Of a DNA stretch of 5,947 nucleotides, positions 1 through 5,483 are shown piece after piece. The stretch's first letter is position 1; each line of letters opens with the position of its first letter. The stretch covers positions 1 through 5,947 of the forward strand of contig JAVVGN010000107.1 in NCBI GenBank assembly GCA_032249095.1, given 5' to 3'. Below the pieces are notes generated by a model. The model saw nothing but the letters and a program-made list of their open reading frames with translations, searched no databases and was not told the DNA's origin. The DNA comes from Candidatus Caldarchaeales archaeon. GTDB taxonomy: Archaea; Thermoproteota; Nitrososphaeria_A; Caldarchaeales; Calditenuaceae. The position numbers and the translations under genes were made by a program.

Positions 1-223
1 AATCAACGTCTACAGCGGACCACACATATACATAGGATTTCTTGACACGTAGCTTAGTCTCATCAACAGCTATACACCTCCTATACCTAGGCTCCCTAGC
101 GACCCTGATTTTAGATACCTTCTTGGCGAGGTAGTGGACGGCAGACTTGCTTATAGGCTCCAAACCCATGCTAAGGACCCTAGAGACCCTCCTACAGCTA
201 CCATGGAACATGTAGTCCAACAC
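1..223 (-). CDS. IS6-like DDE transposase, N-terminal part only; the gene continues past the left window edge
   Basis: My own reverse-strand translation is open from the stop at 233-235 to the window edge. It reads ..AVLDYMFHGSCRRVSRVLSMGLEPISKSAVHYLAKKVSKIRVAREPRYRRCIAVDETKLRVKKSYVYVWSAVDVD. The AVDET..(W)xA(V/I)DVD block parallels VAVDETVLKVNGQTCYLWAAIDVD in the 3293-3622 ORF. Candidate starts are GTG 223, TTG 220 and ATG 211. It is absent from the ORF track because it runs off the edge. Confidence 0.6.
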   Translation of the reverse strand, partial: MLDYMFHGSCRRVSRVLSMGLEPISKSAVHYLAKKVSKIRVAREPRYRRCIAVDETKLRVKKSYVYVWSAVDVD

Positions 224-254
224 TGCTAGGACCTTAACCTCCCTACTTTTTTAT
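1..254 (-). mobile_element. Partial insertion sequence (IS6-like). The right boundary is approximate and the left part lies outside the window.
   Basis: It contains the transposase 5' region. Similarity to repeat-family tails begins abruptly near 255. I could not recognise a terminal inverted repeat, so the boundary is inferred only. Confidence 0.4.
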
Positions 255-426
255 TACGCATAAAACAGCTCGAAACTAGGGCCACAACATCCATAACATA
301 CAAGACAAATCAACAGGCCTTTAAATATAACGCCTTATTTGGACACTATCACTATACGGATACCCAAGACCAAAATACTCGTATGATCGAGGAGGGTGAT
401 AGGCGCGAGTGGGATCCTCGGGCCAA
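255..426 (+). repeat. Repeat-family copy C: tail-only fragment whose 5' part is replaced by the IS at 1-254
   Basis: CACTATACGGATACCCAAG at 350-368 is 19/19 identical to 2743-2761 in copy A. GAAACTAGGGCCACAACATCCATAACATACAAG resembles copy A ACATACTAGGCATAGAGCACAGAAACATCCCAATACAG. AAAATACT at 372-379 matches copy B at 5486-5493. Confidence 0.65.
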
Positions 427-2206: not shown

Positions 2207-2854
2207 TAGAAAAGAGGAAAGAGTGGGGGAGGGGTTGGTTAGTCTATAGGCCTCGGCAGCAAGCCTAGGAACCCCAGACACCAGGATTAGAAACCATCAG
2301 CCCGCCGGAGAAATTCTCCAGCGATTATAATTTGAGAGCCCCCGGTGTATATAGCTCTGGGGTTTTCCCCCTCGCTGTCGGCGACCATCCCCCATCGGAC
2401 GGGACTTACACCCGGCCACGGCCCCTTTGTGCCCCGGGCATATCGGTCCCGCCCTCACCCAACCACCATACAGAACCGATGCTAGAGACGTTACATAAAC
2501 ATTCAGACACCAGACTGAAAATAACGGCCCACCATCCAAGGACATATAAGACCTCAAGGGGACTAATACTGCCAAGAGAAATCTATTACGCCCTAACAAA
2601 CATTAAGGACTTAGAGAAGAAGATAGGAGTAAGGACGAAGAGGTCTAAACAAAAACACATACTAGGCATAGAGCACAGAAACATCCCAATACAGTTGGAT
2701 TTATGGAGCAAAGAGGTAATATTCAGGGAAAAGGACAAACAACACTATACGGATACCCAAGGCCAGAAGAACCATCCAATCATAAAAAACCATCACGGAG
2801 GCAGGAATAGTGGGCCGAGGCGGACTGCGTGACGAAGCCTCGCCGCGGCCCCAC
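2207..2854 (+). repeat. Repeat-family copy A (full module: purine run, G+C-rich structured half, invariant 30-mer, A-rich tail, terminal hairpin)
   Basis: Blocks shared with copy B, in the same order: GGGGGAGGGGTT (2225-2236 vs 4907-4918); GACCATCCC (2383-2391 vs 5176-5184); CATATCGGTC (2439-2448 vs 5232-5241); a 30-mer (2481-2510 vs 5274-5303, 28/30); and GAAGAG(G)TCTAAAC..AAAACAC (2637-2658 vs 5361-5380). The copy ends in a bipartite hairpin at 2810-2854: CGAGGC/GCCTCG inside GTGGG/CCCAC. Confidence 0.8.
2210..2510. ncRNA. Candidate structured RNA of unknown class (G+C-rich half of copy A); transcribed strand unresolved
   Basis: Three helices are supported by compensatory changes against copy B (see findings). 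There is no codon periodicity in the substitutions. The segment is visibly more G+C-rich than the flanking DNA. Confidence 0.5.
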
Positions 2855-2962: not shown

Positions 2963-3022
2963 GAGGCGATGAAGAGTCAGAGTTATGCTGAGGGGTGATT
3001 GTGAGGCATTTGTCTGAGCCTC
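2963..3022 (+). ncRNA. Box C/D sRNA candidate (2'-O-methylation guide)
   Basis: Layout, 5' to 3':
- terminal stem GAGGC (2963-2967) paired with GCCTC (3018-3022)
- a 3-nt bulge
- C box AUGAAGA (2969-2975, 6/7 match to RUGAUGA)
- a 12-nt spacer
- D' CUGA (2988-2991)
- a 3-nt linker
- C' GUGAUUG (2995-3001, degenerate)
- a 12-nt spacer
- D CUGA (3014-3017)
This geometry allows tandem G.A pairs in a k-turn. Confidence 0.55.
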
Positions 3023-3140
3023 TGCCCTCCATTACCCCCATCATGCCAAAGATTCCCGCCTAAACTACTAGCCATATTTTTGCAACCTTTTGACAAATTG
3101 CATTAAGAAAGAGGCCTAAATAGTTTTGAGACCGGTTCAT

Positions 3141-3844
3141 GGGTACTGTCAAGTTGGTATTACCTCTTCTCCTCCTTGCCTGATGATGTTGTGCATTGCT
3201 GCAATAGCAGTTACTAACTCTTCTAGGCTCTTCAGTGTCTTCGCGTTTACGTTGTTGTAGAACCTTTTAGTCCTATTCTTCATCTCCCTGAACTACCTCT
3301 CCATCCTGTTCCTTTTACCGAAGGCCTCGTGGAAGTAGGTTATTCCAAGCCTATCCAATGCCCATCTATACCACGGCCCTCTATCCACAACTATGAGTGG
3401 CTTACATTCACACGGGTCCAATATCTTCCTTAGGAACTTGATTGCGCTTTGAATCCCCCTCCCCCTCGACGCGTATACGGCCAATATCTCGTTGATATCC
3501 ACGTCTATTGCGGCCCAAAGATAACAGGTCTGGCCGTTAACCTTCAGGACAGTCTCATCTACAGCGACCAGCCTCCTACCCTCCTGAACGGCCTGAAGAG
3601 GGAAGAGAACCTGTGAACCCATATCCTGACCGATTCCCTAGACGCGCCGGTTAGACATAGCCTCTCTGAGAGACCCCCTCTAACTAAGGCCCGCTATGAA
3701 GAGAATGACAGAATAGAGCTTCTCGAGAGGAGGGTACCTATGGAACCGAGAGAGACTGGCTAACGAGCTCAGTACCGCATCGATGACGAGCATCACGGCC
3801 AGAGACCCATCCCAAAAGGGCTTAAGTAAAACTTGTCAGTACCC
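3141..3844 (-). mobile_element. Complete small IS6-like insertion sequence (about 704 bp)
   Basis: The terminal inverted repeats are GGGTACTGTCAAGTT (3141-3155) and AACTTGTCAGTACCC (3830-3844, reverse complement GGGTACTGACAAGTT). They match at 14/15 positions and bracket the transposase frame. The flanking 8-mers (CGGTTCAT and AATAACAA) differ, so no target duplication is visible. Confidence 0.7.
3149..3793 (-). pseudogene. IS6-like DDE transposase: one continuous 215-codon frame interrupted by three in-frame TAG codons
   Basis: From ATG 3793 the frame reads MLVIDAVLSSLASLSRFHRYPPLEKLYSVILFIAGLS*RGSLREAMSNRRV*GIGQDMGSQVLF...VAVDETVLKVNGQTCYLWAAIDVD...VVDRGPWY...FGKRNRMER*FREMKNRTKRFYNNVNAKTLKSLEELVTAIAAMHNIIRQGGEEEVIPT, ending at TGA 3149-3151. 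The TAG codons lie at 3680-3682, 3638-3640 and 3293-3295. There are no frameshifts. The track shows only the central 3293-3622 piece. Confidence 0.8.
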
Positions 3845-3860
3845 AATAACAAAAAGAAAC

Positions 3861-4892: not shown

Positions 4893-5303
4893 GAAAAGGG
4901 AGAGAAGGGGGAGGGGTTTGGCTGACCATCCGTGCGGCATTTAGGAAACCCTAGAGGAGGCCGTACGTCATTAGATTCGTCGCAACACCCAACAGAGGGT
5001 GCGCGTCATATACTGCATCATGCCAGCCTCCGGGCTTTATCCCTGCGCCGGCATGGCCAGCCTCCCCAAAGGCTCCCAGCCCCGACCCGGGAGCAATTCC
5101 TCAGGGGGATATGGGCGGGGAGGACACTCCCCGGCGGCGCCAGCAGGCGCAGGGAGCATCTCCACTCCCCTCGGGGACCATCCCGCATCAGACGAGACAC
5201 GCATCCGGACACGGCCCATATGTGTGACCGACATATCGGTCTCGCCTTCATCAACGCTACTATCCACATGATGGCTAGAAACGTTACATAAACATTTAGA
5301 CAC
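4893..5303. ncRNA. Candidate structured RNA of unknown class (G+C-rich half of copy B); transcribed strand unresolved
   Basis: It is the paralogue of 2210-2510, and the same three helices can form with compensated substitutions. Four overlapping track ORFs here on both strands are best explained by the scarcity of stop codons in G+C-rich sequence. Confidence 0.5.
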
Positions 5304-5483
5304 AAAGCTGGAAAAAAATAAGGGAACAATCATCTAGGATATATAGGAGTAATAAAAAATGAAGAGTCTAAACCAAAACACCTACCAGGACAAAATGGGA
5401 AATATGGTCATACAACAGGACTCGTGGGGCAACGCGGTAGTATTCGTGGGAAAAGGGCAACTCACGATAGACGGATAACCATG

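What the first reader, a model, noticed from the sequence alone, without database searches (positions are those of the whole stretch)
2481..2510. Near-invariant 30-mer: a minus-strand promoter or a conserved single-stranded tail, which leaves the transcribed strand ambiguous
GCTAGARACGTTACATAAACATTYAGACAC (2481-2510 and 5274-5303) is far better conserved than its surroundings.

Minus-strand model. Read on the - strand the 30-mer contains TTTATGTAA, a plausible archaeal TATA box. The poorly conserved 19 nt next to it (2462-2480) would then be the TATA-to-start spacer. The start would fall near 2469 in A and 5262 in B. The G+C-rich half would be the transcript. On that strand the far end is CCCCTCCCCC followed by T-rich runs (CTCTTTCCTCTTTTC..CCTTTTT in A, CCCTTTTCTC in B), which resemble oligo-T terminators. 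This predicts RNAs of about 260 nt (A) and about 370 nt (B).

Conflict. That start site would exclude the 3' strand of helix P1 from the transcript.

Plus-strand model. The 30-mer would be a conserved single-stranded segment just 3' of P1. However, I see no plus-strand terminator and only a weak upstream TATA for copy B.
Basis: partly seen in the sequence, partly recalled or inferred. Interest (0 to 1): 0.65.

Follow-up and report, generated by a model that had tools for sequence, protein, structure and literature searches.

The report
Promoter box of archaeal mobile element
The conserved 30-mer is most likely the minus-strand promoter at the head of a G-rich structured RNA carried by a previously unannotated hot-spring archaeal mobile element, whose full-length copies encode a relative of the RNA-guided IS110/TasR enzymes; the window holds two gene-less copies.

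Summary
The 30-mer is real: it occurs at 2481-2510 and 5274-5303, with none expected by chance. In copies found without using the motif, it is the best-conserved 30-nt stretch of its region.

The two repeats are not free-standing RNA genes. They are internally deleted, ORF-less derivatives (about 2216-2761 and 4897-5482) of a roughly 2.2-kb multi-copy element from a probable Caldarchaeales archaeon.

On the window's minus strand a full-length copy reads:
- conserved end
- T-rich stretch
- 30-mer
- about 1.3 kb of G-rich hairpins
- a 286-aa ORF
- a structured far end

The ORF has no Pfam hit. It folds like TasR and the IS621 recombinase and keeps a DEDD-like motif.

The ORF orientation and G·U wobble counts in the best-conserved hairpin put the RNA on the minus strand.

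TTTATGTA in the 30-mer matches this organism's own TATA boxes. In three of four intact copies it is the only TATA-like match between the element end and the ORF. That predicts starts near 2462-2469 and 5255-5262.

No transcript data were available.

The parts
2481..2510 (-). 30-mer, copy A. On the minus strand it reads GTGTCTGAATGTTTATGTAACGTCTCTAGC.
   Evidence: Exact match with none expected by chance. Most conserved 30-nt window among independently found copies.
5274..5303 (-). 30-mer, copy B.
2492..2499 (-). TATA-like box TTTATGTA in copy A, preceded by (C)TGAAT/CTAAAT.
   Evidence: Matches the organism's own promoter boxes, for example EF-1a GTTTTATGTCC and CdvA CTAAATATTTATATG. Found by the regex scan.
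5285..5292 (-). TATA-like box TTTATGTA in copy B.
2511..2526 (-). Extension of the conserved block, upstream of the box on the minus strand (TTATTTTCAGTCTGG). It holds a second A/T-rich box.
   Evidence: Identity 0.83.
5304..5319 (-). The same extension in copy B.
2462..2469 (-). Predicted transcription start zone of copy A, 23-30 nt downstream of the box.
   Evidence: Inferred from the box-to-start-codon spacing of 23-29 nt seen in the organism's mostly leaderless genes. Not measured.
5255..5262 (-). Predicted transcription start zone of copy B.
   Evidence: Same inference.
2397..2454 (-). Hairpin H1 of copy A (GGGCGGGAC...GUCCCGUCC on the minus strand), flanked by UGA and GAUG.
   Evidence: 13 consensus pairs, 4 with compensatory changes, 87 G·U against 6 A·C cells. 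RNAalifold -13.4 kcal/mol on the minus sense against -2.95 on the plus sense.
5190..5247 (-). Hairpin H1 of copy B (GGCGAGAC...GUCUCGUC). It carries the compensatory G-C to A-U change relative to A.
2216..2761 (-). Element A: an ORF-less internal-deletion derivative (A-type). The start-side end is at about 2757-2761 (...ACGGATACC) and the far end at about 2216-2236 (GGAAAGAGTGGGGGAGGGGTT).
   Evidence: Both ends are shared with full-length copies. A-type copies with different flanks occur in L039 and L048.
4897..5482 (-). Element B: an ORF-less derivative of a second subtype. The start-side end is at about 5480 and the far end at about 4897-4917.
   Evidence: Its far part recurs at L011:3569-3752 and L014:13571-13761.
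350..372 (-). Stump of a solo start-side end (CACTATACGGATACCCAAG), cut by the terminus of another insertion sequence at about 317-349.
   Evidence: The same site is intact in other strains (L001, L011, L012) and cut in L015 as in the window.

Best explanation
The 30-mer is the core promoter region (a TATA-like box TTTATGTA with an A-rich upstream flank and a conserved downstream flank) that fires on the window's minus strand. It sits at the head of a G-rich structured RNA belonging to a multi-copy mobile element of a probable Caldarchaeales archaeon.

In complete elements the transcript would run through about 1.3 kb of hairpins into a Shine-Dalgarno-led gene for a 286-aa RuvC-like plus Nop-like protein of the TasR/IS110 fold. 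It would end at the pyrimidine/T-rich element terminus.

Copies A and B have lost the gene and most of the RNA. They keep both ends, the promoter block and the first 200-330 nt of the RNA. They should therefore produce RNAs of about 250 nt (A, about 2469 to 2216) and about 365 nt (B, about 5262 to 4897).

Shown: the repeat, its conservation, the element architecture, the protein fold, and the strand of hairpin H1.

Inferred: promoter activity, the start site, termination, and any partnership between the RNA and the protein.
For: 1. Architecture. The order 30-mer, G-rich region, ORF lies on one strand in the intact copies L032, L036, L051 and L052, and in several degraded ones.
2. Strand. H1 has 87 G·U against 6 A·C cells, and pair 5-61 is G·U in 28 and A-U in 7 of 35 sequences. 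RNAalifold gives -13.4 against -2.95 kcal/mol for H1 and -22.0 against -3.2 for the 30-mer-to-H1 region. Single-sequence folds also favour the minus strand.
3. Promoter likeness. The organism's genes carry TTTAWATA or TTTATGT boxes that end 23-29 nt before mostly leaderless start codons. The EF-1a and CdvA boxes resemble the 30-mer.
4. Uniqueness. In intact copies, the only TATA-like regex match in the 1.6 kb between the element end and the ORF lies in the 30-mer (L052, L032, L036). In L051 the box is mutated to CTTATGT and the match lies 24 nt downstream, in a new TTTTATATA.
5. The ORF has no TATA-like box of its own and has a GGAGGGGTG Shine-Dalgarno-like sequence. This points to an upstream promoter.
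6. Conservation. The 30-mer scores 0.905 against 0.51-0.79 for its surroundings in independently found copies. Its distance to H1 is fixed.
7. It always accompanies the 5' edge of the G-rich module and is absent where that module is absent (L053, L061, L062).
Against: - No RNA data of any kind were available.
- The TATA regex was made ad hoc from the same organism. Its background density is 0.86 hits per kb per strand, and it detects only 13 of 39 real gene upstream regions. 'The only hit' is therefore weak statistics.
- A basal promoter does not explain why the 11 nt downstream of the box (ACGTCTCTAGC), or the further 16 nt upstream block with a second A/T box (TTATTTTC), are so conserved.
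- G at box position 6 is atypical.
- A conserved GAATATTAC near the element end, present in all variants including those without the 30-mer, could be the real promoter.
- The strand test on the next about 200 nt of the RNA was inconclusive: -45.1 against -37.7 kcal/mol, with more compensatory pairs on the opposite sense.
- Copies exchange sequence by recombination. That can inflate apparent conservation.
Confidence: 0.6

Rival explanations
1. The 30-mer is transcribed. The minus-strand RNA starts further upstream, at a promoter near the element end (for example the conserved GAATATTAC) or at the TTATTTTC box. The 30-mer would then be an RNA-level element in the 5' leader, such as a protein-binding or processing site or the small invariant hairpin AUGUU-UAUGU-AACGU.
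For: - The outermost roughly 105 nt of the element, with GAATATTAC, are conserved in every variant, including those lacking the 30-mer.
- The conserved block is about 46 nt, longer than a basal promoter needs.
- RNAalifold draws a 5-bp hairpin inside the 30-mer.
Against: - The hairpin is invariant, so it has no covariation support.
- GAATATTA and TTATTTTC are poorer matches to the organism's boxes than TTTATGTA.
- The 130-150 nt between the element end and the block are the least conserved part (0.51) and carry a 60-nt deletion in B. That is odd for a functional leader.
- No segment of 8 nt or more in the element is complementary to the 30-mer.
Confidence: 0.2
2. The 30-mer is a DNA-level site that is not a promoter. 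It could be an operator for a repressor, a binding site for the element's own protein or a host factor, or a recombination accessory site.
For: - Near-invariance beyond what TBP and TFB contacts require.
- It contains the palindrome AACGTT and the direct repeats ATGT..ATGT (direct reading of the sequence).
- Relatives of the encoded protein (dead TasR, TasA) act as RNA-guided repressors (bioRxiv 10.64898/2026.09.09.750476).
Against: - It lies about 230-270 nt inside the element end, not at a terminus.
- No guide-like complementarity to it was found in the element.
- It is absent from variants that keep both ends and an intact gene (L053, L061, L062). It is therefore not needed for mobility.
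- This reading is compatible with, rather than exclusive of, an operator overlapping the promoter.
Confidence: 0.12
3. The structured half is a plus-strand RNA and the 30-mer is its conserved single-stranded 3' tail, continuing into the A-rich region.
For: - The + strand downstream is strongly A-rich (AT skew +0.4 to +0.5).
- Gene callers placed ORFs there: 166 aa in A and 39 aa in B.
- The second 200 nt of the G-rich region folds about as well on either strand.
Against: - H1's majority pairs would be A·C mismatches on the + strand.
- RNAalifold gives -3.2 kcal/mol on the + sense against -22.0 on the minus sense.
- In full-length copies the + strand is antisense to the ORF.
- There is no + strand TATA-like hit upstream of either copy, apart from the complement of the TrmI gene's box.
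- The A-rich part is the element's terminal module and also occurs alone.
Confidence: 0.03
4. The 30-mer has no function of its own. It looks conserved only because the copies spread recently or homogenise each other by gene conversion.
For: - Clear recombination between copies. In L011, copy C is 94% identical to A over its start-side half but only 81% identical to the orthologous C of other strains.
- The family is mosaic.
Against: - Conversion tracts would not repeatedly stop at the same 30-46 nt.
- Flanks on both sides are 51-68% identical in the very pairs in which the block is at least 87% identical.
- The block is kept across subtypes whose proteins are only 24% identical.
Confidence: 0.05

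Closest known systems
IS110-family insertion sequences with bridge RNA (IS621, ISCro4)
   Same: - Multi-copy element without terminal inverted repeats.
- A long non-coding region upstream of a roughly 300-aa protein with an N-terminal DEDD-like RuvC fold, a coiled coil and a C-terminal helical RNA-binding domain. Foldseek against IS621 (8wt9) gives E 4e-8 and TM 0.62; ISCro4 (9t56) gives E 5e-8.
- A structured RNA encoded in the non-coding ends.
   Different: - No Pfam PF01548 or PF02371 hit, and only 12-14% identity.
- No conserved serine could be aligned to the catalytic Ser.
- The upstream non-coding region is about 1.6 kb, not about 0.2-0.3 kb.
- No target- or donor-complementary loops were identified.
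- The promoter would be internal (TATA type), not rebuilt across a circle junction.
TIGR-Tas systems, TasR (PDB 9MTY; Faure et al. 2025, PMC12045711)
   Same: - This is the best sequence and structure match. The family profile against 9mty_A gives E 1.7e-9. Foldseek gives E 9.6e-9 and TM 0.63.
- It shares the KxDENDxKxL motif.
- TasR is archaeal (Thermoproteota) and has an upstream or downstream non-coding RNA locus.
   Different: - No dual-repeat array: Tandem Repeats Finder finds no periodic array.
[quoted passage not shown]
- The gene sits in a dispersed repeat with conserved ends and at least 20 genomic contexts, unlike single TIGR loci.
Archaeal BRE/TATA core promoters of leaderless genes
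   Same: An 8-nt T/A-rich box with an A-rich 5' flank. It resembles this organism's EF-1a, CdvA, MoCF and DUF488 boxes.
   Different: - G at box position 6.
- The conserved block is far longer than BRE plus TATA.
- It would drive a highly structured non-coding leader of about 1.3 kb in an organism whose mRNAs are mostly leaderless.
Non-autonomous deletion derivatives of insertion sequences (MITE-like elements)
   Same: A and B keep both ends of the parent and lack the ORF. The A-type recurs with different flanks.
   Different: At about 550-580 nt they are long. They retain an internal promoter-like block and the 5' part of a structured RNA, not only the termini.

Membership tests
Archaeal TATA/BRE promoter | T/A-rich 8-mer matching the host's own TATA consensus. 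| tested here: met
   TTTATGTA compares with the host boxes TTTATATA, TTTAAATA, TTTTATGT and TTTATGAA. The regex scan hits it at 2499 and 5292 on the minus strand.
Archaeal TATA/BRE promoter | A transcript 5' end about 23-30 nt downstream of the box. | not testable with these tools
   No RNA-seq or 5'-end data were accessible. The positions 2462-2469 and 5255-5262 are predictions.
Archaeal TATA/BRE promoter | A purine/A-rich BRE directly upstream of the box. | tested here: inconclusive
   CTGAATG or CTAAATG precedes the box and resembles CdvA's CTAAATA. It does not fit the RNWAAW consensus I recall from memory.
IS110 family | N-terminal RuvC-like DEDD domain. | tested here: met
   The conserved motifs are FVDFG, VV(A/x)D/E and K(T/S)DENDV, with D89 invariant. 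The fold matches IS621 and ISCro4.
IS110 family | C-terminal Tnp domain with a catalytic serine. | tested here: inconclusive
   The C-terminal helical domain aligns structurally. No serine is conserved across all 14 aligned relatives, and no residue-level superposition was available.
IS110 family | Pfam DEDD_Tnp_IS110 or Transposase_20 signature. | tested here: not met
   No Pfam hit at E up to 1. None of the best 120 of the 671 relatives found has a precomputed Pfam domain.
IS110 family | Bridge RNA with loops complementary to the target and to the element ends. | tested here: inconclusive
   Structured RNAs exist at both ends. The loop motifs did not correlate consistently with the flanks when compared by eye.
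IS110 family | A mobile element: many copies in different contexts, with no terminal inverted repeats. | tested here: met
   About 20 or more distinct copies and flanks. The two ends are unrelated in sequence. No empty site was recovered, so excision and insertion are not shown directly.
TIGR-Tas | A Tas protein with a Nop-like RNA-binding domain. | tested here: met
   The profile hits TasR at E 1.7e-9 and TasH at E 0.007. Foldseek against TasR gives TM 0.63.
TIGR-Tas | A dual-repeat array: two alternating 8-12-nt repeats with roughly 9-nt spacers. | tested here: not met
   There is no periodic array in L051:3300-6200 or in the window.
TIGR-Tas | [quoted passage not shown] | tested here: inconclusive
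   Each element has 3-6 copies of a shared 12-mer; in the two elements examined in detail they cap hairpins with variable stems. The loops are too short for two spacers, and no UG...CCA boxes were seen.
Rfam families | A match to any curated covariance model. | tested here: not met
   Nothing matched on the elements at E up to 1 in the window. Nothing credible at E up to 5 on L011:11500-13600 (one weak mir-337 match, E 0.03, 24.4 bits against a gathering score of 80). Nothing matched at gathering score on five loci.

The most novel reading that the evidence does not exclude
The RNA launched from the 30-mer may be a new kind of large (0.25-1.3 kb) partner RNA for an unannotated archaeal lineage of RuvC-Nop proteins, sister to TasR and IS110.

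Its 3-6 hairpin loops all carry the same element-specific 12-mer, sometimes alongside a version with a complementary core (for example CCUCGGUCGGGG together with CCUCGACCGGGG; CCUGGAUCAAGG in other elements). The loops change in concert between elements while the one orthologous stem compared between two elements is kept. That is what one would expect of a specificity-determining or self-assembling (kissing-loop) module.

If so, this is a distinct RNA-guided mobile system. It could also be a candidate for the 'missing' archaeal IS110-like lineage discussed for the origin of Nop5 (bioRxiv 10.1101/2024.06.21.599552).
Probability: 0.25. Interest if true: 0.85.

Novelty: new variant of a known kind. 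Interest (0 to 1): 0.55.

Why it matters
- The strand ambiguity is resolved by comparative evidence, though not yet by transcript mapping: the structured halves of both repeats are read on the minus strand.
- What looked like a pair of orphan RNA genes is a mobile-element family. This explains the repeat structure of much of the window.
- The family's protein is invisible to Pfam. Only 57 relatives turned up among 1.84 billion representative proteins, yet it has the TasR/IS110 fold.
- Such proteins are RNA-guided DNA recombinases, nucleases or repressors of current biotechnological interest. They also sit next to Nop5 in evolutionary schemes.
- A thermophilic archaeal branch that carries its own promoter-plus-structured-RNA cassette gives concrete constructs to test: the promoter box, the 250-365-nt natural mini-RNAs from A and B, and the 286-aa protein.
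- For genome annotation, the 166-aa and 39-aa 'genes' called inside A and B are almost certainly artefacts.

Tried and rejected
- **Rfam.** No family matches A, B or the full-length leader. No tRNA or tmRNA genes.
- **Species-representative genome scan.** An exact 20-mer scan of 185,579 genomes gave one hit, in an Omnitrophota bacterium, about what chance predicts.
- **Coding potential of the A-rich half.** The 166-aa ORF in A and the 39-aa ORF in B align, but amino-acid identity (about 35-40%) is below DNA identity (about 70%). The region also occurs as a non-coding terminal module next to unrelated genes. Rejected as coding.
- **30-mer as a guide target or long-range pairing partner.** No direct or complementary match of 8 nt or more elsewhere in the element.
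- **TIGR dual-repeat array.** None found.
- **Loop 12-mers matching the flanking DNA.** Suggestive for L015 and L051, but not borne out in L027, L030, L036, L049 or L050. Dropped.
- **Strand test on the second 200 nt of the RNA.** Inconclusive.
- **Single-sequence AlphaFold model.** Unusable at pLDDT 46. The alignment-based model reached pLDDT 91.
- **Pfam and PDB sequence searches with the second ORF type.** Nothing found. Profile-profile comparison then showed it is a distant paralogue of the first type, with probability 98.6% and 24% identity.
- **Chance hits.** Two of the 29 metagenome hits (L026, L033) have no homology beyond the motif.

Full report
**1. Observation**

The degenerate 30-mer matches exactly twice, at 2481-2510 and 5274-5303. 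None of 200 dinucleotide-preserving shuffles matched. The pairwise alignment of the two repeats is 70% identical overall and 78% over the 80-nt hairpin block. Only 2 of 30 positions differ in the 30-mer.

The block in fact runs about 16 nt further on the + strand 3' side (family D2).

**2. What the two repeats are**

The window's proteins (TrmI, S10) occur on many JGI hot-spring contigs. The gene content includes PolD, crenactin, a faint CdvA hit and a histone. One homologue is labelled 'Candidatus Caldarchaeales archaeon'. Together these point to Caldarchaeales (Aigarchaeota).

A third copy, C, lies next to the EF-1a gene. Its G+C-rich part is about 1.1-1.3 kb long.

An exact-20-mer scan of metagenomes returned 29 loci. 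Two are chance hits. The rest are about 20 distinct copies in different flanks.

Extending the comparison shows a repeat unit of about 2.2 kb (L015:~6293-8470). It has a conserved left terminus...GGGAAAGAG(T)GGGGGAGGGGT, and a right terminus...ACAACACTATACGGATACC.

Read on the window's minus strand, the unit is:
- a conserved terminal stretch of about 105 nt
- a variable T-rich stretch
- the 30-mer
- a G-rich region
- an ORF
- a structured tail of about 170 nt that ends in CCCCTCCCCC and a T/C tract

The ORF is intact (286-294 aa) in L032, L036, L051 and L052. It is truncated or frameshifted in others.

A (about 2216-2761) and B (about 4897-5482) share both termini but lack the ORF and most of the G-rich region. 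They are internal-deletion derivatives. A-type copies recur in other contexts, in L039 and L048.

The 26-nt repeat at 350-375 is the stump of a solo terminal module, cut by another insertion sequence.

**3. The protein**

It has no Pfam hit. There are 671 mostly near-identical relatives in the large collection, as expected for a mobile element. Only 57 relatives exist among 1.84 billion representative proteins.

A 14-sequence profile hits the TasR chain 9mty_A at E 1.7e-9 and TasH at E 0.007. 9MTY is the TasR-tigRNA-DNA complex (PMC12045711).

The alignment-based AlphaFold model has pLDDT 91. Its Foldseek matches are:
- TasR: E 9.6e-9, TM 0.63
- IS621 recombinase: E 4e-8, TM 0.62
- ISCro4: E 5e-8

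The conserved motifs FVDFG, VVxD/E and K(T/S)DENDV give a DEDD-like set.

A second ORF type sits behind the same 30-mer and G-rich module (L025, L049, L050). It is a distant paralogue, with hhalign probability 98.6% and 24% identity.

**4. Which strand is the RNA?**

Three lines of evidence favour the minus strand:
- The ORF orientation in full-length copies.
- G-richness of that strand.
- Hairpin H1 (window 2397-2454 and 5190-5247). Over 35 distinct sequences it has 13 consensus pairs, 4 of them with compensatory changes. There are 87 G·U against 6 A·C cells in the minus sense. For example, pair 5-61 is G·U 28 times and A-U 7 times. RNAalifold gives -13.4 kcal/mol on the minus sense against -2.95 on the plus sense.

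For the first 135 nt including the 30-mer, the values are -22.0 against -3.2. Single-sequence folds agree.

The next about 200 nt gave no clear asymmetry. I report that as inconclusive.

**5. Is the 30-mer a promoter?**

I listed 40 trusted gene starts of this organism. Many have a TTTAWATA-like box ending 23-29 nt before a leaderless start codon. They include EF-1a (GTTTTATGTCC), CdvA (CTAAATATTTATATG), MoCF (GATTTATGAAC) and DUF488 (GTTTTATGGGG). The 30-mer reads CT(A/G)AATGTTTATGTAAC.

I built a regex from those boxes. In intact copies it finds one match in the whole 1.6 kb between the element end and the ORF. That match is inside the 30-mer in L052, L032 and L036.

In L051 the box is mutated to CTTATGT. 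There the only match is a new TTTTATATA 24 nt downstream. This could be a compensatory replacement.

The regex is ad hoc. Its background is 0.86 hits per kb per strand, and it detects 13 of 39 real upstream regions. It is supportive evidence, not proof.

Further points in favour:
- The ORF has no box of its own and has a Shine-Dalgarno-like GGAGGGGTG.
- The 30-mer is present wherever the 5' edge of the G-rich module is visible. It is absent from variants in which that module is missing or replaced by a 165-204-aa ORF (L053, L061, L062).
- Among copies found independently of the motif, it is the best-conserved 30-nt window: 0.905 against 0.51-0.79 for the other segments measured in this region.

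The predicted starts are about 2462-2469 (A) and about 5255-5262 (B). The RNAs would run to the element terminus, giving about 250 and about 365 nt.

What the promoter reading does not explain is the near-invariance of the 11 nt downstream of the box and of the upstream 16-nt block. An overlapping operator is plausible but untested. No complementarity to the 30-mer exists elsewhere in the element.

**6. Comparison with known systems**

Functionally, this looks like the promoter of the non-coding RNA (and mRNA) of an IS110- or TIGR-Tas-like system.

Membership in IS110 fails on the Pfam signatures and is unresolved for the catalytic serine and for bridge-RNA logic. Membership in TIGR-Tas fails for dual-repeat arrays and is unresolved for stem-loop arrays.

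I therefore file it as a new variant within the RuvC-Nop (IS110/TasR) superfamily, carried on a dispersed element.

**7. Verdict**

The minus-strand reading is favoured (0.6 for a promoter proper, plus 0.2 for a transcribed minus-strand leader element). The plus-strand reading is disfavoured (0.03).

The 30-mer on its own is an ordinary kind of feature. The interest lies in the element it belongs to.

Noticed in passing
L051:4220-4420, L015:7350-7850 (minus strand), and the equivalent parts of L013, L025, L027-L030, L032, L035-L037, L042, L049 and L050: Each full-length element has 3-6 copies of one element-specific 12-mer in its G-rich leader; in the two elements examined in detail (L051, L015) the copies cap hairpins with unrelated stems. 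Examples are CCTCGGTCGGGG, CCTCGACCGGGG, CCTGGATCAAGG, CCGGTTCGGG and CCGACCGGG. One orthologous hairpin compared between L051 and L015 keeps its stem while the loops change in concert. Some elements carry two loop versions with complementary cores (CGGTCG and CGACCG), and another has a GATC palindrome. This suggests loop-loop pairing or a shared ligand.
   Followed up: partly
L051:5853-6035, L053:5847-6010, L059:1810-1985; remnants at window 2216-2300 and 4897-4960: The element's far end, which starts at the ORF stop codon, forms a conserved long-range structure. CCAGCCUGAC...AGACCCAGAGGGCUGGAG pairs with CCUUCUGGGUCU...GUCUGGCUGG. The pairing encloses a variable hairpin with covarying stems, flanked by variable single-stranded arms. 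RNAalifold gives -59.5 against -39.9 kcal/mol for the other strand. The outer-stem sequences recur by eye in an element whose protein is only 54% identical (L059, not part of the fold). Its position is like that of IS1111-type or omega guide RNAs.
   Followed up: partly
window 2441-2457 with 2394-2400; 5234-5252 with 5187-5193 (minus strand): The base of hairpin H1 is flanked by UGA on the 5' side and GAUG on the 3' side. In copy B this is a perfect UGAUGA ... CUGA pair. Tandem sheared G·A pairs, as in box C/D kink-turns, could therefore form. That is notable because the associated protein has a Nop-like domain. Seen by reading the alignments and not tested.
   Followed up: no
window 2965-3019 (+): A candidate C/D-box sRNA. 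It gives sub-threshold Rfam matches to sR14 (E 0.025, 20.9 bits) and sR51 (23.2 bits), against a gathering score of 38. Recognisable box C (GAUGAAGA), D' (CUGA), C' (GUGAUU) and D (CUGA) are present.
   Followed up: no
window 3135-3850: A decayed IS6/IS240-type insertion sequence. It has 21-nt inverted termini (3135-3155 and 3830-3850, 86% complementary). A 109-aa DDE transposase fragment lies on the minus strand at 3293-3622. It is intact (205 aa) in L011 and L012.
   Followed up: partly
window 1-349: The end of another insertion sequence, with its transposase N-terminus on the minus strand. This part is related to 3551-3578 (family D7). Its terminus...GGCCTTTAAATATAACGCCTTATTTGGACACTAT, has cut the solo terminal module upstream of the histone gene. 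Other strains have that module intact.
   Followed up: partly
L011:12944-13434 compared with L015:7979-8471: Copies recombine with one another. In the L011 and L012 strains, the start-side half of copy C is 94% identical to copy A. It is only 81% identical to the orthologous copy C of other strains, even though the flanking genes are the same.
   Followed up: partly
L062:575-3000, L061:2124-3000, L053:4840-5000: In some elements the 30-mer and G-rich module is replaced by one or more small protein genes. One is a 165-204-aa ORF that ends just upstream of the start codon of the TasR/IS110-like gene. L053 keeps only a stump of that ORF. The region between the element end and the gene is therefore a swappable cassette.
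   Followed up: no
window 2332-2832 (+) and 5359-5478 (+): Public gene calls place a 166-aa ORF and a 39-aa ORF inside elements A and B, on the strand opposite to the inferred RNA. They have no domain hits and are conserved less well as protein than as DNA. They are probably annotation artefacts.
   Followed up: partly
L001:6824-6860, L043:1520-1566: A DDE_Tnp_1-type insertion sequence (terminus TGCCTTGTGGCTTAATTCC) has inserted independently into copy B about 35 nt from the 30-mer (L001, L002, L007, L008). In L043 it has inserted inside the 30-mer itself, after ACGTCT.
   Followed up: no
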